64,000 bases of DNA from Gammaproteobacteria bacterium (GCA_021774255.1 JAJFJF010000012.1:30259-94258); one strand, 5' to 3'; shown: positions 2,510-46,400, counted from the stretch's first letter. Numbers and translations: made by a program. The notes: generated by a model from the letters alone, not told the origin.

Positions 2510-4027
2510 TTATAAATCTTGGTGGTAAGGATAAGAAATATCCTCATCGATTTGCCAAACGGTATCAAAATCCCAACCGATAAAAGTCTCTTCTTTCATC
2601 ATTTCTTTTGTGGTTTCCTTACCTATTCCACCCTCTGAAGTATCTTGTTGTGAACTTTCAATATCCCAATAGCTTTCTACCACAATGGGATTACCGCCAT
2701 GGCTATTTCTAAATCCGACTAAACCACCGGCAGCGTCATATTCTGCAAATACAAATCCAACCGCATAGCTTTGACTAATTACAGCATCAGTACACGGGAG
2801 ACCTCCTGCAAAATTGAATCCAACTAGACCACCAACATAACCAAGTCCCTCAACACTGCCCATTGCATAGCTTTGGCTAATAATAGTATCAAACCAATGC
2901 GTGATATTTTTCCCAACTAAACCACCAACGTTTTCATGCCCTTTTGTATGTCCTGTCGCATAACTTACAGTAATAATGCCGTCATAATTTTCACCAACTA
3001 AACCTCCTACATTTCTAGAGCCTGTGACGTTTCCAGTAGCATAACTATATTCAATAATTGCACTTTGAGACATATTCCCATAACTATCTATACGACCGGC
3101 TAAACCACCTATATCTCGATATCCATATGAATCATTATGAATAGACACATTGCCTATTGCATAGCTATCAGTGATTTTTCCTGAGCTTTCACCAACCAAT
3201 CCTCCCACAGTATAATCCCCTATCACATTACCTGTGGCATAACTTGCTTCAATATCACCATGGTTACTTCCAATTAAGCCACCAACATAATATACGCCCG
3301 ATATGTCAGTTGTTGAGTAACTTTCCCTGACAATGTTACGATTTATCCCAATAAGCCCCCCCATATGATTACCCAAGGTGCTCTGCACAAGAATATCGCC
3401 ATGAGCATGACTATTAACTATCTCACTGCGACTCTCTCCTACCAATCCACCAAAAACTCTGTCAGATATCACAGTTGTATTGGTGTAGCTATTTTGCACA
3501 ACTTTATGTAAATGAAAACCAGATATACCACCAACGGTACTAGCACCTTCAATTGTGCCGCCTTCAACAAAACTATTATCGATTATTGTGTATTGACTAG
3601 TACCGGTTATGCCACCAACATAATTCTTACCAAAAATCATTGGGTCGATTAAACCTATATGGCTAATACGACCACCTTCTACTGTTTGGTGATGTGTATA
3701 GCCAAATAAGCCTACGTGATCTTGCATAGGACGATTAATGTGGAGATCTCTAATTTCATAACCTTGCCCATCTAAAACGCCAGCAAAAGGATTTTCATAA
3801 TCCCTACCAATAGGCATAAATCCACCATCATCACCATAATCCCAGGAGAAGCAGCTAAAACTTGTGCCCAATTGATAATGGGCAAACAAATTATCCTCCA
3901 TCATTTGGAGTTCAGCACAATTCATAATGATATAGGGATTGTTTTCTGAGCCATCTCCCTTGCTGAAAGCCATGATTGAAGTTGAGGTAAAAAGTAAAGA
4001 AATAGCTAATGTTGATATTTTTCTCAT
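2510..4027 (-). CDS. secreted single-module GLUG-like (VGGLVG) repeat protein
   Basis: The 505-aa protein has an N-terminal signal peptide (MRKISTLAISLLFTSTSIMA). An N-cap follows (CAELQ...DYGDDGGFMPIG...FAGVLDGQGYEIRDLHINRP...VGLFGY). About 12 repeats of the type VGGLVG-x-N-x-G-x-I-x-x-SYA-x-G-x-V come next. The C-cap is conserved (SYWDIESSQQDTSEGG...ETFIGWDFDTVWQIDEDISYPY). Confidence 0.8.
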   Translation of the reverse strand: MRKISTLAISLLFTSTSIMAFSKGDGSENNPYIIMNCAELQMMEDNLFAHYQLGTSFSCFSWDYGDDGGFMPIGRDYENPFAGVLDGQGYEIRDLHINRPMQDHVGLFGYTHHQTVEGGRISHIGLIDPMIFGKNYVGGITGTSQYTIIDNSFVEGGTIEGASTVGGISGFHLHKVVQNSYTNTTVISDRVFGGLVGESRSEIVNSHAHGDILVQSTLGNHMGGLIGINRNIVRESYSTTDISGVYYVGGLIGSNHGDIEASYATGNVIGDYTVGGLVGESSGKITDSYAIGNVSIHNDSYGYRDIGGLAGRIDSYGNMSQSAIIEYSYATGNVTGSRNVGGLVGENYDGIITVSYATGHTKGHENVGGLVGKNITHWFDTIISQSYAMGSVEGLGYVGGLVGFNFAGGLPCTDAVISQSYAVGFVFAEYDAAGGLVGFRNSHGGNPIVVESYWDIESSQQDTSEGGIGKETTKEMMKEETFIGWDFDTVWQIDEDISYPYHQDL

Positions 4028-5795: not shown

Positions 5796-5816
5796 CCCCC
5801 TTCTCTCTATTAGGTG

Positions 5817-5926: not shown

Positions 5927-7465
5927 ATGAGGGAAAAACATCAAGCTCTAAAAACAGCCTTTCTTGGTATTGCTATCAGCAGCACCCCCATTTTTGCTGA
6001 CTCAAGCAACCTCGTGCAAAATATTGCTACGTGCGAAGCACTTCAAGAAATTGCATTTTCAGGCGACCTGGGCGGCAACTACGTTTTGACGCAAGACATC
6101 GATTGCACAGAAAGCGCAAAATGGGATGAAGAACAAGGCTTTTTTCCTGTCGGCAATAAAGAAACTCCTTTTACAGGCACATTAGAAGGCAATGGCCACA
6201 CTATTTTTAATTTGACAATTAATCGCCCTGCTCAATCCTATTTAGGTATATTTGGCGCAACAGATGAAGCCAGCATCACCAATCTTACGCTCAGTGAAGT
6301 CAATACCTTTGGCTTGGGCGGAAAATATGTTGCTGCTTTAATAGGAAAATCCAGTAATACCACTCTAAGCGCTATTAATTTAATGAATGTCAGTGTAGAA
6401 GGATTAGTGGATGTGGGTACGTTAACAGGCTATCACAACGGCTCAGAGAGCATTGATAAAATCAGCGTACAGAATGCCTTTGTTCGCGGCACATTTGCCG
6501 GTGGGCTCGTAGGGTATCTGCTTAACAGCACTATTCGTGACGCCTATGTAGATAATACTACACTTGCAACGGCCTATGCTGTCGGTGGACTGGTGGGTGC
6601 AGCTGAATTTTCAACCATTACTAATAGTGGCTTTAGCGGTGATATTGTGGGTGCGCATGCTGCTACCCCAACGGCTATTGGTGGCTTAGTAGGTATCACA
6701 TTAGATGTTTATATAGATAACAGTGTTGTCTTGAATGCACAGATCCACGGAGAAGAGTCCGTGGGCGGATTAGTCGGATATGGCGGGGTAAGCAAAATAC
6801 GAAATAGCCATGTGATTGACGCTGAAATAGCACACCACGTAAATGTCGGCTCAGGTAGAAACATGGGTGGCTTAATCGGTACCAGTTTACACGATCAATT
6901 AACCAACACTTCTGTGCAAAATACAAATATCACCGTCTGGGAAAAAGGCGGTGGCTTGATTGGAAGCGCAACGGGCACAGAGATCAGCCAATCTTTTGCA
7001 GATGGAAACGTGACGGGCACAGCAAGCACATACAGCAACATAGGTGGGTTAATTGGTGAAATCGATGCTACCCGCGCTGTCACGATTACCGATAGCTACT
7101 CTCACTCTTCAGTGACAGCCATGGGCGGCAGAGCCGGCGGTTTAGTGGGCCTCTTAGGCAATGGGCGCATTGAGCGCAGCTATGCCGCAGGGCGTGTAAC
7201 AGGCAATGGGAGCGGCCTGGGCGGCTTAGTAGGCGTCAGCTATTGTCACGATGAGAGTCCGGGGGAAGAAGGCGTACAAAAGGTATTTGAGAGCTATTGG
7301 GATACTCAAACAACCGGGCAAGCAGCATCAGCGGGCGGCGGGATCCCTAAATATCACGATGAAATGAAACGTCAAAGCACGTTTGTCGGCTGGGACTTCC
7401 CTGCTGTCTGGCAAATTGATGAGGGTGTGAGCTATCCCTATTTGGCTTGGGAAAGCACTTCTTAA
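5927..7465 (+). CDS. secreted single-module GLUG-like (VGGLVG) repeat protein
   Basis: The 512-aa protein has a signal peptide and an N-cap (CEALQEI...DIDCTESAKWDEEQGFFPVGNKETPFTGTLEGNGHTIFNLTINRP..YLGIFG). GGLVG repeats follow. The C-cap is SYWDTQTTGQAASAGGG...STFVGWDFPAVWQIDEGVSYPYL. Confidence 0.8.
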   Translation: MREKHQALKTAFLGIAISSTPIFADSSNLVQNIATCEALQEIAFSGDLGGNYVLTQDIDCTESAKWDEEQGFFPVGNKETPFTGTLEGNGHTIFNLTINRPAQSYLGIFGATDEASITNLTLSEVNTFGLGGKYVAALIGKSSNTTLSAINLMNVSVEGLVDVGTLTGYHNGSESIDKISVQNAFVRGTFAGGLVGYLLNSTIRDAYVDNTTLATAYAVGGLVGAAEFSTITNSGFSGDIVGAHAATPTAIGGLVGITLDVYIDNSVVLNAQIHGEESVGGLVGYGGVSKIRNSHVIDAEIAHHVNVGSGRNMGGLIGTSLHDQLTNTSVQNTNITVWEKGGGLIGSATGTEISQSFADGNVTGTASTYSNIGGLIGEIDATRAVTITDSYSHSSVTAMGGRAGGLVGLLGNGRIERSYAAGRVTGNGSGLGGLVGVSYCHDESPGEEGVQKVFESYWDTQTTGQAASAGGGIPKYHDEMKRQSTFVGWDFPAVWQIDEGVSYPYLAWESTS

Positions 7466-18452: not shown

Positions 18453-18504
18453 GCCGGATAACACACGTTGATGTCGGTTGCCTGCCGCGCTCACATTAAA
18501 ACCC

Positions 18505-19128: not shown

Positions 19129-19337
19129 GTTTCTTTTGTACTAAATCAATGTTAATAAACTAAAAAAATAAGGAAAACTCCGAACAAAGATCATACCTTA
19201 ACTAGGCATACTTATATAGCCCAGCTGCTTTGTCGGCTTAGTTCACCTGCAGGCCACCCTACCTCCAGAAAAAATATTTATGTCATAAATCAAACTCACT
19301 TGTGAGGCTTTTTTTATTTGTGGATCGGGCTTAAGCC

Positions 19338-22300
19338 TTAACGCCAGGCAAATGCCCACATTCCGCGCAGATCGCGCCACCCCTTGTGCAAAGCAGGTAA
19401 GTTATAAAGCAAACGAATCAACATCGCCAGGGTACTCAGCAGAGAAAATAGCAATCGTGCGAGAACAATAGCACTGAGTCCTTGCCGAGCCAGGTACGTT
19501 GCACCAATAGTAAATTGAGGTAAATCTTCTACAGCAACACAGAGCAGCTTAAGAAGTACCAGCTGTGTATCCGCATATTCCGTTCGGGTTCGCAGGCGCA
19601 CCAGATCAGGACCCAGCACGGGCATAAACAATAGCCAATAAGGTAAATCTCCTGCCCGACGAGGCAACCAAGTGCCGTACATCAATTTCAAAGAAAGCAA
19701 CCCAATTCCCAATGAGGCCAGCAAAAAGAATACAAGTGACACCAAAACCAAATCGTTTTGGTGATCTTCATCCATTGCTATGATCAGCGAGCCATCCAGA
19801 ACTTTATCAGCGATCCACCAGAAAAATCCCCAGGTAGCCATCACTTGGTAGCGCTGCAGCAGAAGCAACCAGGCTACTGGTAGACAATAAAACATTTGCG
19901 TCAACCAGCGGTGCTTCCATGTCAAAGTAGGCACCGTTAGGCGCGACCAATCTTGCTCATCGGGTGATAGCAGTTCATTACCCTCAAGCAGGACATCAGC
20001 AAGCACGCTTGAATGTTGTCGTACTGCTGCCTTGAGTGATCCCAGCGCGCGTTTATCGACTCGATTATAGCGGATATCGAGGTGCTGTAGTGTGGGAAAC
20101 GTCCCCAGCTGTTCAAATAAGCAGCGGATCCCCAGCCCCGTGATCTTGTTATGAGAAGCTTTCAGGTGCGTCACAGGGGTTGCTTGCAAAGCACGTAAGA
20201 GCCGTTCAAACGCGACGTCATCCAAACCCAACCCGCTGACATCTACTTCGCTTGGTCCATTTCTTCCCTGCTGCACAAGCAGCTGCAACAAGATCTCGAA
20301 GCTCAAACGCCAGCGATTAGATTTTGAATCGGCGGCCTGCATGAAGTGGTAGACGAGCATCCACCCGTTTTTTTCAATGAGTAGTTGGATAAGTCTCTTT
20401 CCTTTTCGTGTGCATATAAAAGGATTATCCCCTTTCCTGACTAACGCGATGACCTCGCTGGAACGATTACGTGTACCAGCACTTAACAGAGCAATACAAC
20501 CTTCTGGGGTAACCTGGTTTAGCTGTGGTGGATCTGGAAAAAACCACCAGCTTTCAAATAGCCCCACCTGCCCCTCTGTCAAACGCACAAAACTTTGAAG
20601 TCGCTTACTGCAAACCAGCTTAGCGGTGGGTTCAGCAGAAACGTCTACTCCCAAATGAGGCTTTAAATAAGCAGCGATCTGGGGATAGCGTTGCTGGCTG
20701 ATAGCATAAGCTGCACGACACAAAGCGGCCTTTTGCTCTCCCAATCTATTTTCTTCACAAAGAAATTGAACAACATCATAATGCCCCCCTTTTGCGGCCC
20801 ACTCGATAGCGGTGTCACCTTTCACTTTGCGCGTCGCCATACTTGCATCTTGCGTATAAAGCCAGCGCACTGCCGCCAAGTTGCCTATCTCCGCCATCCA
20901 GGCCAAACGATCAGGGCTTTCTAGTAAGCGCTTCAAGCGACGGGAAGCGCGCCAACGATGCAAGACCGTTTCTAACCACAAGCCTGTCGCCATTAGTGTT
21001 ACGGTCAAAATCCAGCGTGGCATCCATTTTTCATAAAACGTGGTGTCGCCTGGGCAAGGCCCTTCAGGAACAGTGGGCGCCTTATCTGGCACCAAATCAC
21101 AATGATAAGGGTAGCTCTTGCCGTGCGCTATGCACCAGATGGTCGGGTCCCAATCTTGGAAAGTTTCCCAGTGATACATTGCTGGCGTTTTTTTACCGTA
21201 GGCACGCAGGCCAAAACTGCCACTTTCTCCTGCTGGAAAGTCTTGCCCCGTTGCATTGATATCCCAGTAAGACGCTTCAAAAATGCCATCTGCTCTTGAT
21301 CCCACCAAGCCACCTTTGGCCTGGTTGGACTGCACACAACCGGCGGTGTAACTAAAACGAACATGATCATTGGCTCCCACACTATGACCGACTAGACCAC
21401 CGGCTTCATCTTTGCCTGTGACAGGCCCCAAAGAATAACAGTATTCAACCATACCGTCGTTTTCGCCAATCACCCCGCCTACTTGGCGGCCCGTGCCTTC
21501 GATAGCGCCTGTACCATAACAATGTGTGAGCACGCCTCCGGCAGTTTGCCGTCCAACCAAGCCAACATTGTCACGACCGGTGACACGACTGGTGGCATAG
21601 CTGCGATCAATGATGCCTGCATTCAGGCCAGCGAGCGCACCCACATCATCACCTTCACTGAGTAGCCGCCCAAAAGCAACGCTCTCAATAACATGTCCCT
21701 CAGCACGGTTATCCCCCACTAAACTTGCAGCACGATCGCCGCGAGCTGTTACCGTGTTATTAACCCAACAACGCAGGAAGATCCCCAGATTTTGGCCAGC
21801 AAGCCCACCCACAGCAACATTGCCTTCAACTTCGCTGTAGACTGCTAATGCTTCAGCCCGCCCCAGGTTGTTGCCAATGGCGCCGCCAACAATTCGAATA
21901 CCCGTCACGGGGCCGTAGGCGGTACTGTGGTAAACGTCTCCACTGCTTTCGCCTATCAATCCACCCGTGGCACTGTCATAGCCAATGACGGCGGCCCATG
22001 ATTGACTGGTGTTGAGCAACCCTTCTAGATGCCCTACCAAGCCACCGACACGATAACTTCCCGTCACGGTTCCAGCAGCAGTACTGTTTGTGATAACACC
22101 AATAATTTTGCTCTGCCCTACTAAACCACCAATGCTCTCACCCGGATCAGCGCCTATCACATCACTTTGCACATGAAGAGCTGTCAGTGTGCCGCCATTG
22201 TGACCAACAGCGCCCCCTACAAAAGCATGCCCTCTCACAATTCCCGAACTGATGCTGTCTGTGACCGTGCTATAGTAATCGTTAGATCCCACCAACCCAC

Positions 22301-23483
22301 CAATAGCCTGTCCTGGGTAGACGCCGGTCACGTTGATTTGAGCATCTACGGTCATCAGTGCACCAAAATTGATACCTACAGCACCCCCCACTAGATAAGC
22401 GCCTCTGACTGCCCCCAAAACGGTGCTCTCCATCACCAGACCTGTGCTTTGTCCTACCAGGCCACCGATACAGCGTCCTGAATGGGCACCGGTCACATCA
22501 ACTTCGGCATAAATACCTGCAAGCGTACCATGATTAAGGCCGAGCACTCCGCCAACCAAAGTCGTGCCTGTTGTCGTAGTAAAAACGGTACTGTTGGTGA
22601 CAGTGCCCGGATTGGATCCTAACAAACCACCAACGAGCTCAACGCCGATCACCTTAGTGTGGGCATAGAGGGCGGTGACTGCGCCATAATTGTTGCCCAC
22701 TGCCCCGCCTACATAAAGGGAACCGGTTACCACGGCAAAAACTTCACCGTTTGTCACTGTGCCCAGCGCACTGTTATACCCCAGCAAACCACCAATAGAG
22801 TGACTCAGGCCGATCCCGGTCAGATTACTTTGGGCACGGATACTTATTAGAGCAGCAGAATTGTAGCCAACTACTCCGCCGACGAGACTGCTCCCTGCTA
22901 CTGTGCCAAAGGCCACCCCCTCAGTCACGGTGCCTTGGTTTCTCCCGACTAAACCACCAATACCCTGTCCTAGGCCTCTACTCTTGACACTCCCTTCTGA
23001 GTAAAGAGCTGTGAGCGTACCTAAGTTATATCCCACTGCCCCGCCGGTATAGACAGTACCTGTTACTACCCCAAGGACTGTGCTGTTGGCGACAGTGCCT
23101 GCATTTCGTCCAACTAAAGCACCGACTTCTTCTTTGCCAACTATTCGAACATGCTTCAAACTCACGCCCTTTATTAGCCCTGTGGTAGCCAGATAGCCAA
23201 ATAATCCTACATAATTTTCATCAGTTCGGTTGCTAGTTAGGTAGCTGATTTCGTACCCGCTCCCATCATATTCACCCGAAAAAGGGGTGGCTAGCGTGCC
23301 AATGGGCCTAAACCCGGCTCCTCCATTCCACGCTTCGCTGCCTGCGCAGCTAATATGATGGGTTTGAATGAAAGAACCCGATAGATTGCCAGCCAAGGCC
23401 TGCAACGACTCACAGCTATCCACAGCGGCTTGCGCGCAAGCCGCCTCTATCAGTAAAAACAGTAGAAAAATTTCCCCAAACAT
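19338..23483 (-). CDS. giant GLUG-like repeat protein with TM segment, ankyrin repeats, RNI-type LRR and conserved C-terminal membrane domain
   Basis: The start was set at MFGEIFLLFLLIEAACAQA, a signal peptide; the track ORF starts 23 codons earlier. The N-cap plus GGLVG/GGAVG repeats and C-cap YWDINATGQ...YPY are followed by a hydrophobic segment. An ANK-like region and an LRR region (LKASHNKITGLGIRCL..LQHLDIRYNRV) come next. The C-terminal domain is YWLLFMPVLGPDLVRL... The N-terminal ~110 aa are nearly identical to those of the divergent neighbour. Confidence 0.8.
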   Translation of the reverse strand: MFGEIFLLFLLIEAACAQAAVDSCESLQALAGNLSGSFIQTHHISCAGSEAWNGGAGFRPIGTLATPFSGEYDGSGYEISYLTSNRTDENYVGLFGYLATTGLIKGVSLKHVRIVGKEEVGALVGRNAGTVANSTVLGVVTGTVYTGGAVGYNLGTLTALYSEGSVKSRGLGQGIGGLVGRNQGTVTEGVAFGTVAGSSLVGGVVGYNSAALISIRAQSNLTGIGLSHSIGGLLGYNSALGTVTNGEVFAVVTGSLYVGGAVGNNYGAVTALYAHTKVIGVELVGGLLGSNPGTVTNSTVFTTTTGTTLVGGVLGLNHGTLAGIYAEVDVTGAHSGRCIGGLVGQSTGLVMESTVLGAVRGAYLVGGAVGINFGALMTVDAQINVTGVYPGQAIGGLVGSNDYYSTVTDSISSGIVRGHAFVGGAVGHNGGTLTALHVQSDVIGADPGESIGGLVGQSKIIGVITNSTAAGTVTGSYRVGGLVGHLEGLLNTSQSWAAVIGYDSATGGLIGESSGDVYHSTAYGPVTGIRIVGGAIGNNLGRAEALAVYSEVEGNVAVGGLAGQNLGIFLRCWVNNTVTARGDRAASLVGDNRAEGHVIESVAFGRLLSEGDDVGALAGLNAGIIDRSYATSRVTGRDNVGLVGRQTAGGVLTHCYGTGAIEGTGRQVGGVIGENDGMVEYCYSLGPVTGKDEAGGLVGHSVGANDHVRFSYTAGCVQSNQAKGGLVGSRADGIFEASYWDINATGQDFPAGESGSFGLRAYGKKTPAMYHWETFQDWDPTIWCIAHGKSYPYHCDLVPDKAPTVPEGPCPGDTTFYEKWMPRWILTVTLMATGLWLETVLHRWRASRRLKRLLESPDRLAWMAEIGNLAAVRWLYTQDASMATRKVKGDTAIEWAAKGGHYDVVQFLCEENRLGEQKAALCRAAYAISQQRYPQIAAYLKPHLGVDVSAEPTAKLVCSKRLQSFVRLTEGQVGLFESWWFFPDPPQLNQVTPEGCIALLSAGTRNRSSEVIALVRKGDNPFICTRKGKRLIQLLIEKNGWMLVYHFMQAADSKSNRWRLSFEILLQLLVQQGRNGPSEVDVSGLGLDDVAFERLLRALQATPVTHLKASHNKITGLGIRCLFEQLGTFPTLQHLDIRYNRVDKRALGSLKAAVRQHSSVLADVLLEGNELLSPDEQDWSRLTVPTLTWKHRWLTQMFYCLPVAWLLLLQRYQVMATWGFFWWIADKVLDGSLIIAMDEDHQNDLVLVSLVFFLLASLGIGLLSLKLMYGTWLPRRAGDLPYWLLFMPVLGPDLVRLRTRTEYADTQLVLLKLLCVAVEDLPQFTIGATYLARQGLSAIVLARLLFSLLSTLAMLIRLLYNLPALHKGWRDLRGMWAFAWR

Positions 23484-23564
23484 CCTGCCTTGGCAAAATA
23501 CTCTCTCCTGATCAATGGCGTAACAAGCAAAGGTAAGATACAAACACGCCATTCAAACGCGAAC

Positions 23565-23600
23565 GCAATAAAAAAGCCAGCTCAAGCAATTGTTTTATAT
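23565..23600 (-). promoter_or_regulatory. conserved regulon promoter motif copy (minus strand; CTTACC-N7-GTTACGCCATTGATCAGGA variant)
   Basis: It has TTAC boxes 13 bp apart. It is ~80 bp upstream of the corrected start at 23483. It matches the core consensus at 14 of 22 positions. Confidence 0.4.
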
Positions 23601-23784
23601 GAAATTAATCCACCCTTCCCTTTGCTTGTCATAACGGTTGTATGCCCTAAAAAACAGAGCCGCCCTGCCCCTAGCATCGCTTTTTCAGGCAACTGTAACG
23701 ACGAGAAGTGCCTACAGAAAGAGTGGCGAGAAAATTTACCCACCCGTGTTACGCTACTAGAAAGGAAAGCGTATTAAAAAAGAA

Positions 23785-26700
23785 ATGGCTAACAACCGTG
23801 TGCTTCTTTTTTTATTGACACTATCTGCAGCAGTTTTAGCCCAAGAAGAAATAGAGAGCTGCGAGGCGTTACAGGCAGTTGCCGACAACCTTTCTGGCTC
23901 CTTTATTCAAACCCGTCACATTAGCTGCGTAGGCAGCGAAGACTGGAATGGAGGAGCCGGGTTTAGGCCCATTGGCACACTAGCCACCCCTTTTTCGGGT
24001 GAATATGATGGGAGCGGGTACGAAATCAGCTACCTCACTAGTAACCGAACTGATGAAAATTATGTAGGATTATTTGGCTATCTGGCTACCACAGGGCTAA
24101 TAAAGGGCGTAAGTTTGAAATATGTCCGAGTCATTGGAAAAGAGCGAGTAGGCGGTTTAGTTGGCCAAAATAGAGGGGCTGTTTTCGATAGCACAGTGCT
24201 TGGAAATATAACCGGCATATTTATGGTGGCTGGGGTGGCAGGTACTAATCTCGGTACGCTGACCAACATCCGTGCCCAAATTATTATAACGGCCCTCCCC
24301 CCTGGCGAACGTGTTGGCGGCTTGGTGGGGGAAAATACCAACACAGAAGGCGCAACAGGTATCGTGACAAATAGCAGTGCTTTCGGGACGGTCACTGGAA
24401 ACTACTTGGTTGGCGGTGCAGCAGGAAATAATGATGGCACGCTCATAGCGATCCATACCCAAACTCACGTGATTGCAGTTGATCCTGGGGAGTACATTGC
24501 CGGCTTAGCAGGACTCAATATGGGGCTCATCGCTGACAGCAGTGCTTCCGGAACAGTCGTCGGTACCCAGCTCGTCGGCGGAGTGGCAGGTGCCAACTTT
24601 GGCACACTGATTGCCACCTCCCAAGCCAACATCACTGGCAGCAGCAAAGCTACCGGAGGCCTGGTAGGCCAAAATGAAGGCCTCGTAATAGATAGCGCAG
24701 CTTTTGGGGCAGTAACTGGCACAACGCATGTAGGCGGAATTGCAGGCATCAACGGCAACACCATAACGGATACCTTCAGCCATTGCACTGTCATAGGAAT
24801 CGAACCGGGGTGGTACGTTGGCGGTTTAGCCGGCTATAACAGTGGCAGCACCATGAACAGTGCTGTCTATGGCGAAGTAATAGGCACCGCTTATGTAGGT
24901 GGCGCGCTAGGCGTGAATTTCGGCACCTTAACTGCCGTCGATGTTGAAGCCAGCGTGAGTGGCCTCGACCCCGCTGAATTCATCGGTGGTGTAGTAGGCG
25001 AAAATGGCGGCACAGGTATTATCTCAAACGCTACCTTTTTTGGGGAGGTAGTAGGCAGTGCCCAAATTGGCGGCGCCTTGGGCAACAACCTGGGCATAGC
25101 GACTCTCCTCTATTCTCAAGGTGACGTGACCGGCATGACTTCAAGCAAATCTGTCGGCGGATTGTGTGGACGCAATGAACGATTGATCTCCCATAGCACA
25201 GCGAATACCGCAGTCTTCAGTGCGGGCCCCAATGCAGGTGGTTTTGTGGGTGAGAACACTTATACTGGCGAATTACTCAACGCCACTGCTTTGGGAAACG
25301 TTATCAGCACAGCAGACAGTGCCGGCGGCCTAGCGGGGGCTAACCATGGTAAAATTTTTGATAGCCTAGCCCTGGGAAATGTCTCTGCCTATTATCTGGC
25401 GGGAGGACTCATTGGCGTCAACACGATCACCGCGCTTGTTAATCGAAGTGCTTGCTTGGGCGTTGTCTCGGGAACAGAAAGCCAAATCGGAGGATTGATC
25501 GGTCTTCACGAAGGTGTCCTTGAGAACAGCTATGCTTTAGGGTGTGCTTCAGGCACCCATACCGTAGGGGCTTTGCTTGGAAAAAATGAAGGCACACTCA
25601 AACATTGCTACGCTGTTGGTTGTGTGACGGCAGAAAACAACACCGGTGGGCTGGTGGGTGGAACACTGTCATCCCATGATGTTTTCTCTTGTTTCTGGAA
25701 TAAGCACAGCACCGGGCAACGCCACCCTGCTGGCGGGCGCTACGACGCCTCCCTACAAACGCTTGGTCTTTCAAACGAAGAGATCCGTCAGGCTGAGACT
25801 TTTATCGAGTGGGATCCTGGTACTTGGCACATGATTGAAGGCCAGCTTCCTTATCTTCCCTCACTCACACTTGCCCCACAACCTCAGCTACCAACCGAGC
25901 ATTGCCCGATGGCGCCACTGCCCTTTTCTGCCTGGATGAGTGAACTTGCATCCCTGGGTACAGTTTGGATCAGCATGATGCTGCTTTGGCTGATGTGGCG
26001 ACGCTGGCGTACCTTACAACAAAGCTTCCTTGTATGGCAGGATAGATGGCTGTGGCGGGTAGCGACAAAAGGCGATCAACACCTGCTTCACTATCTTCTG
26101 ACTGATAAACCCAATATACCTACCGAAGATGAGCAAGAGATCTCTGCCATTGTTTTCGCCGCACGTATGGGTTTTCTTGAGATGGTGGACACCCTCATTA
26201 AAAAATGGAAGATTCAAGCAACAGAGGAACGTTACACGGAAGCATTGTCCACAGCCCAATATTATGGATACCAAGAGATCATCACACTTTTAAAGCCAAC
26301 AGATGCCGGCTCACTTGTCCCCCCCTCTCCTGTCGAGATGAGAGAAGGAGGCGGCAACCTACGCCGTCGAGCGCAACCACGTAGCGGCGCTGGGGAAGCA
26401 CTATTGGGCACCCATCAACAACACACGCAAGAAGAAGAGCTGTACGAAGCCGCTTCCAACGGACACTACTTTACAACATGGTGGCTACTGCTTAACGAAG
26501 CCATATGTAATCGTGTCTTAGAACAATATCAGACAACACCACTTTGGGCAGCTATCAAAAAGGGGCACTTAAATACAGCACTTTTGCTCGTGGCATATGG
26601 TGCCTTTTTACCAGTACAAAATTCACGTAAGCAAACCGTGGCGCACCTCTTGATAAGCCAGCACCGACGGATCTGGGCCAAGCGTCTGCGCGATGCCAGT

Positions 26701-27678
26701 CCAGAAGCGGCTTTGTGGCCGTTTTGTTTCCGGTTATACCGACAAGCCTTGAGAGATAATAGTGATGCTTTAACGTCAGCCGATCTCAGTGGCTACGGTT
26801 TGGGCGACGAAGCGCTTGCCGATTTAGCGGATGCCATGAAGGGGAATTCTCACCTAACGCACTTGTTAGCCAGCAACAACCATTTCACCGACCGAGGCCT
26901 CCAATACCTGGCACAAGTATTGACTGAGCATGCCGCCATCCCGCTCACTGAAGTGGACGTACGTCATACTTTGGTGACGCAGCGGGGCATTGACGCTTTG
27001 CGGCGGGCCAAGTGTGATCTGACGATCCAATGGGAGGGTACCCGAGCAGATACTACCGTCACTGAAAACCGTTGGGCGCACTGGAGTGAAGCATGGCAGC
27101 AGCGATGCAGTTTGAAGCTCGCCCTCTCCTGGCAACGTTATACATTAGGCCCCCTGTTGGGATGGTGGCTTATCATGGCCCATCGCTTTATCAGCGGCTT
27201 TCTCATTCAAGATTTGGATGAACAGCACCAAGAAGCGCTCATGACAGCAGGAAGCATCTTGTTTATCATTAGCTACGCTAATAGCCTGCTTGCCTTACGC
27301 TACGTCTACGGTGCATGGTGCCCTCGCCAACTACTCGATATCCTAGGCTTCTTGGCGTTGTTGCCTTTACTGTCGCCTGAGCTACTTATCCTTATCTGGC
27401 AAATTAACTACCCGGATGTTGCGCTGACGCTTTTTAGCAGTGCCCAACTCCTGCTTGAAGTCGCACAGGCAACTTTGTTTCTTTATGCCGGCACGTTAGA
27501 AGGGTTTTCAGCATTTATCCTTCTAAAGTTAAGCCTCACGCTTTTTTCGATACTCTGGCACCTGGCCGCTTGGCTTCACCAAGGCACGACTCTCATTCCT
27601 CAATTTCAAGGGCTATGGGAACGCCCCGGAGATTTTTTCACACCAGAGGATCCCGGAGAGGAGATGCGCCAAGTCTAA
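23785..27678 (+). CDS. giant GLUG-like repeat protein with TM segment, ankyrin repeats, RNI-type LRR and conserved C-terminal membrane domain
   Basis: The 1297-aa protein has a signal peptide and GLUG repeats. A TM segment follows (VWISMMLLWLMW). The ANK region reads LWAAIKKGHLNTALLLVAYGA. The LRR region reads LSGYGLGDEALADLADAMKGNSHLTHLLASNNHFTDRGLQYLAQVL. The C-terminal region is multi-helix and hydrophobic. Confidence 0.8.
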   Translation: MANNRVLLFLLTLSAAVLAQEEIESCEALQAVADNLSGSFIQTRHISCVGSEDWNGGAGFRPIGTLATPFSGEYDGSGYEISYLTSNRTDENYVGLFGYLATTGLIKGVSLKYVRVIGKERVGGLVGQNRGAVFDSTVLGNITGIFMVAGVAGTNLGTLTNIRAQIIITALPPGERVGGLVGENTNTEGATGIVTNSSAFGTVTGNYLVGGAAGNNDGTLIAIHTQTHVIAVDPGEYIAGLAGLNMGLIADSSASGTVVGTQLVGGVAGANFGTLIATSQANITGSSKATGGLVGQNEGLVIDSAAFGAVTGTTHVGGIAGINGNTITDTFSHCTVIGIEPGWYVGGLAGYNSGSTMNSAVYGEVIGTAYVGGALGVNFGTLTAVDVEASVSGLDPAEFIGGVVGENGGTGIISNATFFGEVVGSAQIGGALGNNLGIATLLYSQGDVTGMTSSKSVGGLCGRNERLISHSTANTAVFSAGPNAGGFVGENTYTGELLNATALGNVISTADSAGGLAGANHGKIFDSLALGNVSAYYLAGGLIGVNTITALVNRSACLGVVSGTESQIGGLIGLHEGVLENSYALGCASGTHTVGALLGKNEGTLKHCYAVGCVTAENNTGGLVGGTLSSHDVFSCFWNKHSTGQRHPAGGRYDASLQTLGLSNEEIRQAETFIEWDPGTWHMIEGQLPYLPSLTLAPQPQLPTEHCPMAPLPFSAWMSELASLGTVWISMMLLWLMWRRWRTLQQSFLVWQDRWLWRVATKGDQHLLHYLLTDKPNIPTEDEQEISAIVFAARMGFLEMVDTLIKKWKIQATEERYTEALSTAQYYGYQEIITLLKPTDAGSLVPPSPVEMREGGGNLRRRAQPRSGAGEALLGTHQQHTQEEELYEAASNGHYFTTWWLLLNEAICNRVLEQYQTTPLWAAIKKGHLNTALLLVAYGAFLPVQNSRKQTVAHLLISQHRRIWAKRLRDASPEAALWPFCFRLYRQALRDNSDALTSADLSGYGLGDEALADLADAMKGNSHLTHLLASNNHFTDRGLQYLAQVLTEHAAIPLTEVDVRHTLVTQRGIDALRRAKCDLTIQWEGTRADTTVTENRWAHWSEAWQQRCSLKLALSWQRYTLGPLLGWWLIMAHRFISGFLIQDLDEQHQEALMTAGSILFIISYANSLLALRYVYGAWCPRQLLDILGFLALLPLLSPELLILIWQINYPDVALTLFSSAQLLLEVAQATLFLYAGTLEGFSAFILLKLSLTLFSILWHLAAWLHQGTTLIPQFQGLWERPGDFFTPEDPGEEMRQV

Positions 27679-27857
27679 GATAGGAAGATGATGACTTGTA
27701 AAAGGCATGACAAAAAAACAGCAATATATTTGCCAGAAAAATAACTTATTTTGACCGACACGAAGAAACAAGATATGATTTTATAAGCTTACATGATCAC
27801 AATGTTCGTTCGGGCAACCGGATAGCAACCCACAAAATAATACTAAAAGGCAAAACC

Positions 27858-28130: not shown

Positions 28131-28158
28131 TGCTTGCAACGAAGGCCTTTCTGATTCA

Positions 28159-29127: not shown

Positions 29128-29195
29128 TCGGGTAGCCCCTCACCCTAAAGGCAAAAGCAATAAAACATTACAAATCAATAAACTAAACTATAAAT

Positions 29196-31299: not shown

Positions 31300-31359
31300 G
31301 CAGACTCTCTGCGTAAACTAGGTTTAGCTTACCACAATAGTGGCGGAGAGGGAGGGATT
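31300..31359. repeat. 60-bp direct repeat copy 2 (overlaps the intact tRNA-Ser 3' end)
   Basis: It is identical to 31119..31178. Confidence 0.7.
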
Positions 31360-36486: not shown

Positions 36487-37530
36487 TTACTCAGCCGCTT
36501 CCGCTACGCCTTCTTCAGCTACTTTAGAAGTTGCATTAAGGTCAGGCAATAATATCCCTCTTAATTTACCTTCAATTTCAGCTGCAATCTCTGGATTTTC
36601 TTTCAAAAAGGTGCGCACATTGTCTTTACCTTGACCAATACGCTGATCGCCATAGCTATACCAAGCACCGGATTTATCGACAATCCCTTCTTGCACACCT
36701 AAAGAAATGAGCTCACCCTCGCGCGAAATACCTTCGCCGTATAAAATCTCAAACTCAGTTTGCTTAAACGGCGGCGCCACTTTGTTTTTCACGACTTTCA
36801 CACGCGTTTCATTACCGACTACTTCATCGCCTTTCTTAATGGCACCAATACGACGAATATCCATCCGTACTGAAGAGTAGAATTTTAAGGCATTACCACC
36901 GGTCGTGGTTTCAGGGTTACCAAACATCACGCCGATCTTCATACGTATTTGGTTAATAAAGATAACTAAGCAATTGGAACGCTTAATATTTGCTGTCAGT
37001 TTACGTAAGGCTTGAGACATGAGGCGGGCTTGTAACCCCATGTGACTGTCGCCCATATCGCCTTCAATCTCTGCTTTTGGCGTGAGCGCTGCCACCGAGT
37101 CAACCACCAACACGTCAACGGCCGCTGAACGCACGAGCATATCGGTAATTTCCAAAGCTTGCTCACCGGTGTCAGGCTGTGAGACGAGCAAATCATCTAC
37201 ATTCACTCCGAGTTTTCCGGCATAAATTGGATCGAGAGCATGCTCCGCATCCACAAAGGCCGCGGTACCGCCTGCTTTTTGGCATTCCGCAATGACTTGC
37301 AATGTGAGTGTGGTTTTACCCGATGACTCTGGCCCGTAAATTTCCACTACCCGGCCTTTTGGTAAGCCACCAATGCCCAAAGCAACATCTAGCCCCAAAG
37401 AACCTGTTGAAATACTTTCAATATTGCGCGAGACGGTTGAATCGCCCATACGCATCACCGAGCCCTTGCCAAACTGGCGGTCTATCTGACCCAATGCTGC
37501 TTCGAGTGCTTTTGCTTTATTGTCATTCAT
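36487..37530 (-). CDS. recA: recombinase RecA
   Basis: The sequences [23 protein letters not shown]...[24 protein letters not shown] are canonical RecA. Confidence 0.95.
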
Positions 37531-40932: not shown

Positions 40933-43335
40933 ATGACAAGCGCGACCGCAAATATCGAACAACATACCCCCATGATGCAGCAATATCTGCGCATAAAGGC
41001 AGAGCATCCAGACAAATTGCTGTTTTATCGCATGGGCGATTTCTACGAGTTTTTCTTTGAAGACGCAAAGCGTGCTGTCAAATTGCTCGACATCACCCTC
41101 ACCCATCGTGGCCAATCAGGGGGTGAGCCTATCCCCATGGCCGGCGTGCCCTATCATGCGGTAGAAGGCTATTTGGCCAAGCTTATTCGGCTCGGCGAAT
41201 CCATGGCGATTTGCGAACAAGTGGGCGATCCCGCGCTGGCTAAGGGCCCTGTCGAACGCAAAGTTGTGCGCATTGTCACACCCGGCACCGTCACCGATGA
41301 AGCTTTATTAGAAGAACGACAAGAAAATTTACTCGTGGCCATTAGCGAAGCAAAAGGTCATTTTGGTGTGGCCAGCCTCGACATGGGCAGTGGTCGCTTC
41401 CATGTATCAGAAGTGGATAATCTGGAAAGTGTCAGCAGTGAACTGGCACGTTTACAGCCAGCAGAATGTTTGTTGAATGAAGCCTCTGAGGCCCCCATTG
41501 AAATAACCGCCAGCACACAACGCCGCCCGGCACACACCTTTGACATAGATCATGCCACCCGCTTGCTGACCACACAATTTGGCACACAAGATTTATCGGG
41601 TTTTGGTTGTGAGCATTTGCCACTTGGGATCAGCGCTGCCGGTGCCTTATTGCATTATGCGCAAGAAACACAGCGTACCGCCCTGCCTCATATTCGTGGT
41701 TTACGGGTACAATCTTCTGATGACAGTGTCACGCTTGATGCCACCACGCTGCGTAATTTAGAATTACTCACGAATCTTTCTGGCGGCAAAGAGCACACGC
41801 TGGCTTGGGTGCTCGATCATACCGCGACCCCGATGGGCAGTCGCTTGCTGCGGCGCTGGATTAAACGGCCGTTAAAAGATCACAACACGCTGACTCGCCG
41901 ACACCAAGCGATCCATACATTACTTTCAAAACAGACTTATGAAAATATCACGCCCTTGCTTAAAAGCATCGGCGATATCGAGCGCATTTTAGCCCGCATT
42001 GCCTTGCGCAGCGCCCGCCCACGCGATTTGGTCGGTTTGCGGCAAGCCTTAAGCACCCTGCCTGCACTGCAAAAAATACTAGGCACGTTAGACAATCCTT
42101 TTCTGCAGAAACTGAGTACCCAAATTGGTGAATTTCCCGAGTTATTTGCTCTGCTTGCCCGTGCAATTGAAGCGTCCCCTGCGCAATTGATCCGCGATGG
42201 CGGCGTGATTGCCGATGGGTTTGATGCCACACTCGATGAACTGCGCCAAATCAGTGAACATGCCGGGCAATATTTAATTGATTTTGAGGCCACCGAGCGT
42301 GAGCGCAGCGGCTTGCCCACATTGAAAGTCGGCTTTAACCGTGTGCATGGTTATTATATTGAAATCAGCAAAGCGCAAGCCGGCCAAGCACCTGAGCATT
42401 ACACACGTCGTCAAACGCTCAAAAATGCCGAGCGCTATATTACGCCGGAACTCAAAACCTTTGAAGACAAAGTACTCAGCAGCCGCGAACGCGCGTTAGC
42501 GCGAGAAAAAGCCCTCTATGAAAGCTTATTAGACGATTTACTAAACGTATTACCTGAACTGCAACAATGCGCACATAGCCTGGCGGTGCTGGATGTTTTA
42601 ACAAACCTGGCTGAACGTGCCGACATACTTCATTTTACTTGCCCTACTTTTACCGAGCAGCCTGGCATTCATATCGAGGAAGGTCGCCACCCCGTCATCG
42701 AGCAGGTACAGTCCGCGCCCTTTATTCCAAACGATGTGATACTCAACGAGGCTGATCGCATGCTGATCATCACCGGCCCCAATATGGGCGGTAAATCAAC
42801 GTATATGCGGCAAACCGCGTTGATCACTCTGCTGGCCTATATGGGCAGCTTTGTGCCTGCAAAAGTCGCCCAGTTTGGGCCGATTGATCGGATTTTTACG
42901 CGCGTGGGCGCCGCGGATGATTTAGCCAGCGGCCGCTCGACGTTTATGGTGGAGATGACAGAAACCGCCAACATTCTGCTTAATGCCACGGCACAGAGTT
43001 TGGTGTTATTAGATGAAGTTGGGCGTGGTACCAGCACCTACGATGGCTTGGCGCTTGCCTGGGCGGTCGTCACGCATCTTGCGGAAGAAACAAAAGCCTT
43101 TACGCTCTTTGCTACCCATTATTTTGAACTCACCAGCCTACCTGAATCGATTAAAAACATCAGCAATGTGCATCTTGATGCTGTCGAGCACAATGATGAT
43201 ATTGTCTTCCTGCACAAGGTTAATCCTGGCCCCGCCAGCCGCAGCTATGGCCTACAAGTTGCCAAACGTGCGGGGATTCCTGAAGCTATTATTCAGCAGG
43301 CAAAAGAAAAGTTAAATCAACTAGAACAGCATTAA
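40933..43335 (+). CDS. mutS: DNA mismatch repair protein MutS
   Basis: The 800-aa protein has a mismatch-binding N-terminus ([30 protein letters not shown]). The Walker A motif is GPNMGGKST. The C-terminus is the standard one. Confidence 0.95.
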
Positions 43336-43499: not shown

Positions 43500-46400
43500 C
43501 TAAAGCGTCGACATTTCAATATCACCCGGCAACGTGCCTGCTCTGGGTTTATCAGCTAACGCTTGCTTCCCAAAGCATCTTCCTTTTAACTGCCATAATT
43601 GCTGGCGCATCGTTGGCAAATCATAAAACAATAACTTGCTCAGAAAAAAGAGGGATGCGGTAAAAGCAACAACGACCTTAATCAACACAAAAGTATTGCT
43701 CCCCTTGCGAGTCAAAAACAATACCCCAATTGTAAATTGCGGCACATCTTCCAGGGAGAAGTTAGCGATTTTCATTTTGGCAAAACGTTGGTCGATGTAT
43801 TCAACACCCCACTCCAAGCGAACCCATTCTGGGCTTAAAATAGGCAAGGTAAGTAACCAGTAAGGACATTCGGATAACGACTTCGGATACCAACGACCAC
43901 GCACAGTCCGCATACCCCACAAACCAATTCCATACGATGCAAATAAAAACAGGGTCGAATAGAGGGCTAGCTGAGCTTCATCATTAGCCAGCAATTCACG
44001 GATCAAAAAGGCGTCTGAGATCCTATCGGCCATCTCCAGCATAAAACCAAATACAGTGACAAGTTGATAGCGCTGCAGGCGAAGTTGAATATGCTCAAGC
44101 TGTGCACCAAACATGTTCAGCAACGAACAAGAGGGCGCGTTCTGAAGCAGTTCTTCATTTGCGTTGCCCAACTGACGTTGCGACAAATACTGGTTCAGTT
44201 GGTTCCAGTAAACATCATTTTGAGGCAAGAGCTCATTATTAGCGAGTTCAACTATCCGCAAGACCGTTTGCCTTTGCAAGGCCCGCATCAGCAAGCGCAC
44301 GCTAGCAACATCAAGCAAATTGTCACTCAAATCCAACTTGGTTAATTGGGCAGGCAAACCAGGCCCTTCGAGCCAACCACGCAAACCCACCACGCTCAGA
44401 CTGTTGCGCGCCAAATTGATTTCAGTTACCACGGTATTGTTAGAAAGTGCTTGTGCTAGCTTTTGAAGCTGTACATCCGTGAGATTTTGTCCGCTCAAAT
44501 CAAGGTGTGTGAACTGCGGTGCATTCTCTTCAATGGCCTGCAAGAACAAGTCAAAACTCGCAGGCCAAACAGCGTAATAAGGGCTCGCTCGTACAAGCAA
44601 CTGTGCATCTACACGCTTGCCTTGCATGATAGCCATATCAATGGCCGTGTAGCCTTTGGGTGAACGCACAAACAGATCTGCACCGTCGCCAACAAATTTT
44701 TGGGCCTCGTAAAAATCACCAAGACAAACAGCCAGCATCGGTGGCGTAAGGCCAGAACAGTTGACTAGATTTATCTCAGTGTGGTCTTTTGCTGCCACAA
44801 GATCATGCTCTGATAACAAACTCAGTGATAAACCCGCTTTCAGTTCTTCATCAATTTGCTGCTGATACTGTTGCTCAATGGCCTCACTGTTTGGAATATA
44901 TTGATTGACGCCCTTGTGACCATTGTTGATTGCTGCTTTTAACGCTACTTCAAATGCGAACAAGGAGTCTTGCACAGACATCTTGGAAACAAGGTACGCC
45001 ACGACCTCCAGGTGCCCACCTTGCGCAGCCCACCATAAAGGCGTGTGGCCTTCAGCATCTTCTGCCATGACAGAAGCGCCCTTCTCTTCAATCTGCCACT
45101 TGACGAGCGAGAGGCTGCCGATTTGCGCGGCAGCATGCAATGGATGAAAGACGGCTTGCTTCTGACGACGACGCCACATGAGCCAGGCAAATCCCAGCGC
45201 GGCTGCACCCGCCGTCACACCAATATAGCTATTGAGCTGCGTCTGGTACAAAGCGGGTGGGATAGGACAAGCATCAACAGGTTTGATCGGTATCATGCTT
45301 GTCTGAAATTGCAAGTAAGGATAGCTATCGCCTTTGGCAATTTGCCATATCTGCTCAAAATCCCAGCCTTGATAAGTGTTGGGCTGGTACATTGCTTGGG
45401 TCTGTCTGCGATAGCGGCGGCGATAGCTGTAATACTGATCGTTCACACCGGGCAAAGACTGCCCCGTCGTCGAGACATCCCAGTAAGACTGGCTCACCAG
45501 CGCAGTATCCAAAAATGAGCCTGTCAGAGCGCCTACACTATTACCTTGCACACAACCTGAAACATAACAATTGCTAAAGCGTCCGCTGTTTTGGCCAATC
45601 AATCCACCGACATTTTGCTCACCTGTTGTGCTCGTGACGGCATAGCTATCAATAAGTTCTCCGCTGTGCACACCAATCAGGCCGCCCGTTTGGCGTACGC
45701 CGATCACGCGTGACTGGGCAAAACACTGAGTGATCTCTCCTAGGTTATGCCCAACCAGTCCACCGGCCGTTTGTGCTGCTGCCACTTCGCCCAGCGCATA
45801 ACTGCTCAAGATATCACCACTATTTCTACCCACTAATCCGCCGGCGGTGTCTTGTGCTGTCACAGAACTGTTACTATGGCTAAATATTAACGTGCCTGAA
45901 TGGTCCGCAATTAAGCCACCCGCTTCTTCAAGAGCCGTGACGTCTGCTTTGCTGTGACAAGACGATACCTCACCTTGGTTCCGAGCAATGAGGCCCGCCA
46001 CTGTGAAATTGCCATTCACCACCGCACTTGCTGAACAATCTGTTACTGTGCCTGTGTTTTCGGCGATGAGGCCTGCAACCGTATCGATACCGTCAACCTG
46101 ACCTGTAAAGTGACTATTGCTCACCTCACCCTGGTTAACACCGAGCAGGCCTGCGCCGATAGCCACCGTCAGACTGACGCTACCGGTCACCTGGCAATGA
46201 GAGACACTTCCTTGATGATAGCCAACCAATCCACCAATGATTTCTTGACCGTGAATATTCACTTCCTCAAGAATAACGTTACGGATCTCCGCCGTGGCTG
46301 CGGTGTAACCAAAAAGACCCAAGCGCGTCTTGTCGGGCTGGTTCATGTAGAGAGAACGAATGCGATAGCCCTGCCCATCAAAAACGCCTGAAAAAGGTTC

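What the first reader, a model, noticed from the sequence alone, without database searches (positions are those of the whole stretch)
23164..24110. ~150-bp, ~98% identical inverted repeats inside the 5' coding ends of a divergent GLUG pair bracket the promoter region - possible invertible expression switch
The first ~110 codons of the minus gene (start 23483) and the plus gene (start 23785) are nearly identical. At the DNA level 23164..23315 and 23959..24110 are inverted repeats with ~3 mismatches in 152 bp. Weaker similarity extends ~80 bp further on each side. The 643-bp segment between them holds both start codons and the shared intergenic region. The strong regulon motif in that region points only at the minus gene; the plus gene has only a degenerate copy. 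RecA-mediated inversion between the repeats would move the strong promoter in front of the other giant gene. That resembles the Campylobacter fetus sap promoter-inversion mechanism for switching surface-protein variants. Alternatively the identity reflects ongoing gene conversion between the two 5' ends.
Basis: partly seen in the sequence, partly recalled or inferred. Interest (0 to 1): 0.8.

Follow-up and report, generated by a model that had tools for sequence, protein, structure and literature searches.

The report
Gene-conversion patch in head-to-head paralogs
Two anciently diverged, back-to-back giant surface-protein genes share a real, 167-base, 98%-identical inverted patch near their starts. 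Recent DNA copying between the two genes explains it best, and it could in principle let the promoter region flip, but nothing here shows that it does.

Summary
The full core is 167 nt with 3 mismatches, inside a 374-nt, 84% repeat. The two GLUG/ankyrin genes are otherwise only 30-43% identical as proteins.

In the patch even silent codon positions match. Only 5 of 65 codons differ synonymously, against 25 of 39 in the flanks (p = 1e-9) and about 40% between orthologues of the nearest relative. So the patch is a recent, probably recurrent, DNA-level gene-conversion tract, not protein-level conservation.

The arms are in the same reading frame, and a simulated inversion keeps both reading frames open. 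recA and mutS are intact in the window. RecA-mediated flipping of the 613-bp promoter segment is therefore physically possible.

Nothing shows that it happens or that it acts as a switch:
- Only one assembly exists and no reads are available.
- No recombinase gene lies in the 64 kb.
- Both genes keep their own start codon and a homologous ~55-nt leader.
- No consensus promoter is found on either strand, and the claimed promoter asymmetry was not reproduced.
- The other two head-to-head GLUG pairs in the window lack such a patch.

Verdict: an ordinary gene-conversion footprint with an untested potential to invert.

The parts
23164..23330 (-). Left core arm of the inverted repeat, inside gene A (A codons ~52-107)
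   Evidence: 164/167 complementary to 23944-24110 in the register x+y=47274
23944..24110 (+). Right core arm of the inverted repeat, inside gene B (B codons ~54-109)
   Evidence: 164/167 match; perfect blocks of 35, 56 and 68 nt
23071..23444 (-). Extended left arm (weaker homology on both sides of the core)
   Evidence: 374 nt, 84% complementary; flanks 65-70% identical
23830..24203 (+). Extended right arm
23331..23943 (.). 613-bp segment that a crossover in the core would invert. It holds both start codons, both signal-peptide coding regions, ~50 codons of each gene and the whole spacer.
   Evidence: A simulated inversion gives two intact chimeric ORFs of 1383 and 1295 aa
23484..23784 (.). 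Divergent spacer. The ~55 nt next to each ATG are homologous (TTACC..TGTTACGC..GTATT) and the distal parts are unrelated. A 15-nt inverted repeat lies at 23523-23537 / 23615-23629.
   Evidence: no sigma-70 consensus promoter
19338..23483 (-). Gene A: signal peptide, GLUG repeats, ankyrin/LRR, C-terminal TM helices (1381 aa). The public gene call starts at ATG 23552 (1404 aa).
   Evidence: Pfam GLUG 8.7e-22, Ank_2; TM segments; start ambiguity
23785..27678 (+). Gene B: paralog of A (1297 aa), 43% identical over the GLUG part and ~30% over the rest
   Evidence: Pfam GLUG 8.1e-25, Ank_2; BLASTP A vs B
19229..27741 (.). 8.5-kb block holding A and B. It is absent from the nearest relative, where Sua5 and bolA are adjacent.
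   Evidence: L002 aligns to window 17593-19228 and 27742-29135 only
36487..37530 (-). recA (followed by recX): the trans-acting machinery that would carry out conversion or inversion
   Evidence: Pfam RecA 2.8e-145
40933..43335 (+). mutS: mismatch repair, expected to restrain recombination between the 98% identical arms
   Evidence: Pfam MutS domains I-V

Best explanation
The near-identical inverted repeat is a recent, probably recurrent, ectopic gene-conversion tract between two old head-to-head paralogs, A and B. They encode secreted or membrane GLUG-ankyrin proteins. The tract sits on the most conserved stretch of the family's N-terminal domain (WNGGxGFxPIG...FDGxGYEI...YVGLFGY). Slow protein divergence there leaves enough DNA homology for RecA-mediated strand exchange, and each exchange re-homogenises the stretch and keeps it recombinogenic. 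The identity gradient (98% core, 87% shoulder, 65-70% outer flanks, then chance level) fits repeated tracts of varying length. Because the arms are inverted and in the same codon phase, resolving the same intermediate as a crossover would invert the 613-bp segment between them. That would swap promoter, leader, signal peptide and about 50 codons between the two gene bodies without breaking either ORF. Shown: the repeat, DNA-level homogenisation, its recency, in-frame compatibility with inversion, and intact recA and mutS. Inferred: RecA as the agent and recurrence of conversion. Not shown: that inversion occurs, at what rate, or that it changes expression.
For: Repeat geometry and identity. 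Synonymous test: in B codons 41-111, 5 of 65 identical-amino-acid degenerate codons differ; in the flanks (codons 16-40 and 112-145) 25 of 39 differ; Fisher p = 1.1e-9. Calibration: orthologues of the window and its nearest relative differ synonymously at 38-41% of such codons, so the patch is several-fold younger than that species split. A and B as whole proteins are only 43% and 30% identical. The same conserved block is 82% identical in nucleotides in pair C/D and 62% in pair G1/G2, so protein constraint alone does not give 98%. The patch coincides with the most conserved columns of the family alignment. recA, recX and mutS are intact. The simulated inversion keeps both ORFs open. No site-specific recombinase domain was found in any sizeable ORF of the window.
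Against: Only one genome sequence is available, so donor, recipient and number of events cannot be reconstructed. A single recent replacement of one 5' end would give the same core, although it explains the graded shoulders less well. RecA involvement is inferred, not tested; template switching between closely spaced inverted repeats is an alternative route. Three head-to-head GLUG pairs in 64 kb, against 0 head-to-head among 28 multi-copy loci elsewhere, hints that the orientation may not be accidental. A pure 'passive footprint' reading does not explain that.
Confidence: 0.75

Rival explanations
1. Programmed, recombinase-free promoter-swap switch. RecA-mediated crossovers in the repeat reversibly flip the 613-643-bp segment. 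One strong promoter then alternately drives the A body or the B body, giving population heterogeneity in two giant surface proteins, as in the Campylobacter fetus sap locus.
For: Inverted, in-phase arms bracket both starts, and both chimeric ORFs stay open. Perfect blocks of 56 and 68 nt exceed the roughly 25-30 nt minimum for RecA-dependent exchange in E. coli (own knowledge). recA is intact. The genes encode signal-peptide-bearing repeat proteins, a class that is often phase-variable. The A/B block is accessory, being absent in the nearest relative. The best relaxed promoter matches are slightly better towards A (8/12) than towards B (7/12).
Against: There is no evidence for a second orientation, because only one assembly exists. 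Both genes keep their own ATG, signal peptide and a homologous ~55-nt leader, so neither is a silent cassette. No consensus promoter is found on either strand. No GLUG-specific upstream motif beats shuffles. The arm is short (167 nt) and 2% diverged in a mutS+ background, so the expected rate is far below classic phase variation (own knowledge). The two other head-to-head GLUG pairs lack a homogenised patch, so this is not a conserved design.
Confidence: 0.12
2. Site-specific inverton. A serine or tyrosine invertase encoded elsewhere in the genome acts on short sites embedded in the arms, as in Mycoplasma pulmonis vsa or shufflon-type gene-altering inversions. The long identity would be a by-product.
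For: Inversions that move a promoter plus an N-terminal coding part onto other genes are known for vsa (PMC4534519). 'Partial intergenic' invertons overlapping genes are common in long-read surveys (bioRxiv 10.1101/2023.03.11.532203).
Against: No recombinase domain was found in any sizeable ORF of the 64-kb window. Site-specific systems need only 10-35-bp sites and usually have the recombinase next door (own knowledge). The graded identity profile looks like homology-driven conversion, not a discrete site.
Confidence: 0.05
3. Conservation only. The patch is identical because this part of the protein, or an overlapping nucleotide-level signal, is under extreme purifying selection, with no recombination between the copies.
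For: The patch is the most conserved block of the GLUG N-terminal domain across distant homologues.
Against: Synonymous positions are homogenised too: 8% differ against 64% in the flanks (p = 1e-9). The same block in C/D is 82% identical and in G1/G2 62%. Rfam finds no RNA family there.
Confidence: 0.02
4. Assembly artefact. A metagenome assembler merged or mis-threaded two similar 5' ends, creating the identity or the orientation.
For: The source is a single 99.5-kb contig with no second copy in public data. Inverted repeats make the orientation of the enclosed segment ambiguous for k-mers shorter than the repeat.
Against: The arms differ at 3 positions and diverge smoothly on both sides. Both ORFs are intact over 3.9-4.1 kb. 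De Bruijn assembly does not average sequences, and the longest exact block is only 68 nt, which ordinary reads span.
Confidence: 0.03

Closest known systems
Ectopic gene conversion (concerted evolution) between inverted paralogs, e.g. tufA/tufB of Salmonella (own knowledge)
   Same: Two oppositely oriented paralogs have a DNA tract kept near-identical at silent sites by homologous recombination. The same substrate can also give inversions.
   Different: Here only ~170-215 bp of genes about 4 kb long is homogenised. The copies are 0.6 kb apart head-to-head rather than far apart. The rest of the proteins is only 30-43% identical.
Campylobacter fetus sap locus: RecA-dependent promoter inversion between the conserved 5' regions of sapA homologues
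   Same: Inverted conserved 5' regions of paralogous surface-protein genes flank a promoter-bearing segment, and no dedicated invertase is needed. [quoted passage not shown]
   Different: In sap a single promoter serves otherwise silent cassettes, and the ~600-bp conserved region includes the start of the gene. Here the repeat is 167 nt, starts ~120-160 nt inside the ORFs, each gene has its own start and leader, there are only two partners, and promoter uniqueness is unshown.
Mycoplasma pulmonis vsa and other gene-altering ('partial intergenic') invertons and shufflons
   Same: Inversion transfers a promoter plus an N-terminal coding part to another gene body (PMC4534519). Invertons overlapping genes are widespread.
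   Different: Those systems use site-specific recombinases and short sites. No recombinase is found here, and the repeat is a long homology tract.

Membership tests
Ectopic gene-conversion tract between paralogs | A patch of much higher identity than the rest of the paralog alignment | tested here: met
   Core 98.2% (164/167) against flanks of 65-70% and chance level beyond; whole proteins 30-43% identical
Ectopic gene-conversion tract between paralogs | Synonymous sites are homogenised, which excludes protein-level constraint | tested here: met
   5/65 against 25/39 synonymously different codons, Fisher p = 1.1e-9; orthologue calibration 38-41%
Ectopic gene-conversion tract between paralogs | Phylogenetic incongruence of the tract against orthologues in other genomes | not testable with these tools
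   No orthologues found: the best hits to the B N-terminus are at most 41% identical, all window proteins are singletons, and the nearest relative lacks the pair
Ectopic gene-conversion tract between paralogs | Homologous recombination machinery is present | tested here: met
   recA, recX and mutS are intact in the window
sap-type RecA-dependent promoter inversion (C. fetus) | Inverted conserved 5' regions of paralogous secreted-protein genes flank the promoter region | tested here: met
sap-type RecA-dependent promoter inversion (C. fetus) | A single promoter in the invertible segment; the copy not facing it is silent | tested here: inconclusive
   No sigma-70 consensus on either strand; weak 8/12 and 7/12 candidates in both directions; both genes keep a homologous ~55-nt leader and their own ATG
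sap-type RecA-dependent promoter inversion (C. fetus) | The conserved repeat covers the gene start, so the encoded protein is exchanged as a whole | tested here: not met
   The repeat core begins 153-159 nt inside the ORFs. Inversion would make chimeras that swap the signal peptide plus ~50 codons
sap-type RecA-dependent promoter inversion (C. fetus) | Both orientations coexist in a population, and this depends on recA | not testable with these tools
   There is a single assembly and no reads
Site-specific invertons / shufflons | A serine or tyrosine recombinase is encoded nearby | tested here: not met
   No recombinase domain was found in any non-nested ORF of at least 100 aa in the 64 kb. 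The rest of the genome was not seen.
Site-specific invertons / shufflons | Short discrete inverted sites (about 10-35 bp) are the only shared sequence | tested here: not met
   The shared sequence is a 167-374-nt graded homology tract within homologous coding sequence
GLUG-motif proteins (Pfam PF07581) | GLUG repeats above the gathering score | tested here: met
   A 76.4 bits and B 85.9 bits against a cutoff of 20.5; C, D, G1 and G2 also pass

The most novel reading that the evidence does not exclude
The patch is the working part of a recombinase-free, RecA-driven switch. Recurrent crossovers in a self-maintaining 170-nt homology tract flip a 613-bp cassette. That swaps promoter, leader and signal peptide between two giant GLUG-ankyrin membrane proteins of an uncultured sulfur-oxidiser-related gammaproteobacterium. 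The head-to-head arrangement of all three GLUG pairs in this region would then be selected for this purpose.
Probability: 0.1. Interest if true: 0.55.

Novelty: new member of a known kind. Interest (0 to 1): 0.33.

Why it matters
If the segment does flip, this would be a rare example outside Campylobacter of promoter or leader exchange between surface-protein genes driven by general recombination rather than by an invertase. It would also be in an uncultured environmental or symbiont-like gammaproteobacterium, and in a protein family (GLUG-ankyrin giants) of unknown role. As it stands, the finding shows how a short, strongly conserved coding block can remain a recombination substrate between paralogs that are otherwise 60-70% diverged. 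It is also a caution for inverted-repeat scans: near-identical repeats in the coding ends of head-to-head paralogs are expected from gene conversion and do not by themselves indicate a switch.

Tried and rejected
- **Strain or orientation comparison.** Exact look-ups of window proteins failed or gave singletons on one 99,545-bp NCBI contig. The genome-contig scan gave one irrelevant Planctomycetia hit. A protein search with B residues 1-200 gave only 5 hits of at most 41% identity. No comparison of orientations was possible.
- **Nearest relative.** The closest relative (Logan contig L002, ~80-85% nucleotide identity) lacks the A/B pair altogether. It can date the patch but cannot show orientation.
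- **Recurrence elsewhere.** In 80 metagenome loci with the GLUG N-terminal domain there is no inverted repeat of at least 80 bp at 85% or more, and no head-to-head pair. These are distant relatives (33-50% identity), so this bears only weakly on the question.
- **The 'regulon motif'.** The 22-mer upstream of A has no other copy. A gapped version is not enriched. A scan of the GLUG upstream regions does not beat shuffles. The enriched 10-mer GCCAGAAAAA is not GLUG-specific and often lies between convergent genes.
- **Promoter asymmetry.** The consensus scan was empty and the relaxed scan was inconclusive.
- **Other searches.** E. coli Chi sites are absent from 22900-24400, but the organism's own Chi sequence is unknown. 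The original C. fetus sap papers are not held in the library, so details of sap beyond PMC3887049 rest on my own knowledge. Rfam finds no RNA family in the region.
Full report
**Observation**

The window carries two divergently transcribed giant genes. A runs on the minus strand, 19338..23483. The public gene call for A uses ATG 23552, but homology with the other family members favours 23483. B runs on the plus strand, 23785..27678.

The repeat finder gives a single long inverted repeat across their 5' ends. Its arms are 23071-23444 and 23830-24203: 374 nt, 84% complementary. In the ungapped mirror register (x+y=47274):
- The core extends to 23164-23330 / 23944-24110, matching at 164/167, with mismatches at 23979, 24036 and 24042.
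- A 215-nt stretch is 95.8% identical.
- The outer 75-84 nt on each side are 65-70% identical, and beyond them identity is at chance level.

The first ~50 codons are not nearly identical: the signal peptides differ, and B codons 16-53 carry 12 amino-acid differences in 38. Only codons ~54-111 are identical.

**What the genes and the region are**

A and B each have a signal peptide, GLUG repeats, ankyrin (and LRR-like) repeats and C-terminal hydrophobic helices. The window holds two more head-to-head pairs of the same family:
- C (43500..51713, minus) and D (51986..60505, plus).
- G1 (2510..4027, minus) and G2 (5927..7465, plus), which flank a LuxR-type regulator gene.

The rest of the window is ordinary chromosome: murJ, scpAB, trpS, a Sua5/YciO family gene, bolA, a threonine/serine dehydratase (PALP), ispA, lysC, alaS, recX, recA, cinA, mutS, surE and an enolase gene.

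RecA is 84-89% identical to those of Chromatiales-type sulfur oxidisers such as Thiohalomonas and Candidatus Thiodiazotropha. The organism is therefore an uncultured gammaproteobacterium without close sequenced relatives. All window proteins are singletons on one 99,545-bp NCBI contig.

**Is the identity more than paralog conservation?**

Yes. As whole proteins A and B are only 43% identical over the GLUG part and ~30% over the rest.

I compared silent positions in codons that encode the same amino acid in both genes:
- Patch (B codons 41-111): 5 of 65 codons differ synonymously.
- Flanks (codons 16-40 and 112-145): 25 of 39 differ. Fisher p = 1.1e-9.
- The same conserved block in C/D: 13 of 36 differ, and it is 82% identical in nucleotides. 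In G1/G2 it is 62% identical.

The patch does coincide with the most conserved columns of the family's N-terminal domain. But protein constraint cannot explain identical silent sites. The patch is therefore a DNA-level homogenisation: gene conversion, or some other recombinational copying.

**Dating**

The nearest relative I could find is Logan contig L002, from run SRR18502801, ~80-85% identical in nucleotides. Its Sua5, bolA and dehydratase orthologues differ synonymously from the window's at 38-41% of identical-amino-acid codons. The patch differs at 7-8% and the A/B flanks at 57-75%. The last homogenisation is therefore several-fold younger than that species split, while A and B themselves are far older.

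The graded profile (98%, then 87%, then 65-70%, then chance) suggests repeated tracts rather than one event. That is an inference.

In L002, Sua5 and bolA are adjacent. The whole 8.5-kb A/B block (19229-27741) is missing. The pair is therefore accessory DNA.

**Could it invert?**

Physically, yes:
- The arms are in the same codon phase.
- Reverse-complementing 23331-23943 in silico yields two intact chimeric ORFs of 1383 and 1295 aa. Each consists of the other gene's promoter side, signal peptide and ~50 codons joined to its own body.
- Perfect blocks of 35, 56 and 68 nt are present.
- recA, recX and mutS are intact in the window.

From general knowledge of RecA-dependent recombination, a 167-nt arm that is 2% diverged in a mutS+ cell should recombine, but rarely. 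The expected rate is well below that of classical phase variation.

**Is it a switch?**

Nothing I could test says so.
1. No second assembly, strain or read set is reachable.
2. No serine or tyrosine recombinase domain occurs in any sizeable ORF of the 64 kb.
3. The switch idea needs unequal promoters, and I could not show that.
   - The ~55 nt upstream of both ATGs are homologous (TTACC..TGTTACGC..GTATT), and only the distal spacer halves are unrelated.
   - An extra copy of the A-proximal block points towards B (15-nt inverted repeat 23523-23537 / 23615-23629).
   - The consensus promoter scan finds nothing on either strand.
   - A relaxed scan gives at best 8/12 towards A and 7/12 towards B.
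4. I could not reproduce a 'regulon motif' specific to the minus gene.
   - No motif shared among the GLUG upstream regions exceeds shuffled controls.
   - The 10-mer GCCAGAAAAA is enriched in the window, 24 copies against 8.8 expected. It has a one-mismatch copy at 23681-23690 (minus) and a two-mismatch copy at 23726-23735 (plus).
   - Many of its copies lie between convergent genes or downstream of stop codons, so it is not a promoter element by position.
5. The other two head-to-head pairs have no homogenised patch. The architecture is therefore not a conserved design.

**Comparison with known systems**

- *Mechanism.* The closest match is ectopic gene conversion between inverted paralogs (concerted evolution, as for tufA/tufB; own knowledge).
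- *C. fetus sap.* The layout resembles the sap locus, where only the homologue downstream of one promoter is transcribed and recombination exchanges homologues (PMC3887049; RecA dependence from own knowledge). Two defining features are not met or not shown here. The repeat does not cover the gene start, so inversion would make N-terminal chimeras. A single promoter is also unproven.
- *M. pulmonis vsa.* The predicted product, a promoter plus N-terminal coding part joined to another gene body, is what vsa inversions do. Those are site-specific (PMC4534519).
- *Invertons overlapping genes.* These are common in long-read surveys (bioRxiv 10.1101/2023.03.11.532203). This is why reads, not sequence alone, are the decisive evidence.

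**A point in favour of something more**

All three GLUG pairs in this window are head-to-head. Among 80 distantly related metagenome loci, 28 carry more than one N-terminal-domain gene. All of those are in tandem and none is head-to-head. None of the 80 has an inverted repeat of at least 80 bp at 85% or more. These loci are only 33-50% identical to the query, so this is a weak hint that the orientation is not accidental.

**Verdict**

The repeat is real and highly non-random. It is best explained as a recent, probably recurrent gene-conversion tract (confidence ~0.75). It is a competent but unproven substrate for RecA-mediated inversion of the promoter and leader segment. The 'expression switch' reading remains a hypothesis, at ~0.1-0.15. 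Novelty: a new member of a known kind. Interest: moderate to low until read-level evidence exists.

Noticed in passing
window 19229-27741; L002 1-3142: The whole A/B pair is an 8.5-kb block absent from the nearest relative, where Sua5 and bolA are adjacent. Both ends of the block carry CCAGAAAAA(A)TA in direct orientation (about 19265 and 27733), which may be a duplicated target or junction sequence.
   Followed up: partly
window-wide, e.g. 27732, 31486, 33292, 38879, 40858, 60548: The 10-mer GCCAGAAAAA (up to 1 mismatch) occurs 24 times against 8.8 expected, 18 of them on the + strand and many of them intergenic. A longer palindromic form, AGAAAAATAA-N-TTATTTTTCT, lies upstream of the lysC-like gene (33292), with related copies upstream of bolA and mutS.
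   Followed up: partly
window 31119-31178 and 31300-31359: A perfect 60-bp direct repeat. The second copy overlaps the 3' end of tRNA-Ser (31341-31431, minus) next to tRNA-Arg (30996-31072), which looks like an att-type remnant of an integrated element.
   Followed up: no
window 2510-7465, 19338-27678, 43500-60505: There are three head-to-head pairs of GLUG paralogs in 64 kb, and the first pair flanks a LuxR-type regulator gene (5031-5795). In 80 distantly related metagenome loci, every multi-copy arrangement (28 loci) is tandem and none is head-to-head.
   Followed up: partly
window 19338-27678 and 43500-60505: The domain order is unusual: signal peptide, long GLUG repeat region, then ankyrin (and LRR-like) repeats, then C-terminal hydrophobic helices. 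No paper linking GLUG and ankyrin in bacteria turned up in the library.
   Followed up: partly
window 23483 vs 23552: The start of gene A is ambiguous. Homology with B, C and D favours ATG 23483, but that signal peptide has no basic residue (MFGEIF...). The public gene call uses ATG 23552, which adds 23 residues including two arginines and would place the conserved 'leader' inside the ORF.
   Followed up: partly
window 52933-54571, 49865-50434, 48293-48539: There are long internal tandem repeats (81-83% identical) inside the giant genes C and D, so copy number can probably vary by unequal recombination.
   Followed up: no
window 1062-2255, 39465-40670, 9167-10270: Two AAA_14/DUF4143 ATPase genes and a Fic/DOC (DUF4172) gene are scattered among housekeeping genes.
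   Followed up: no
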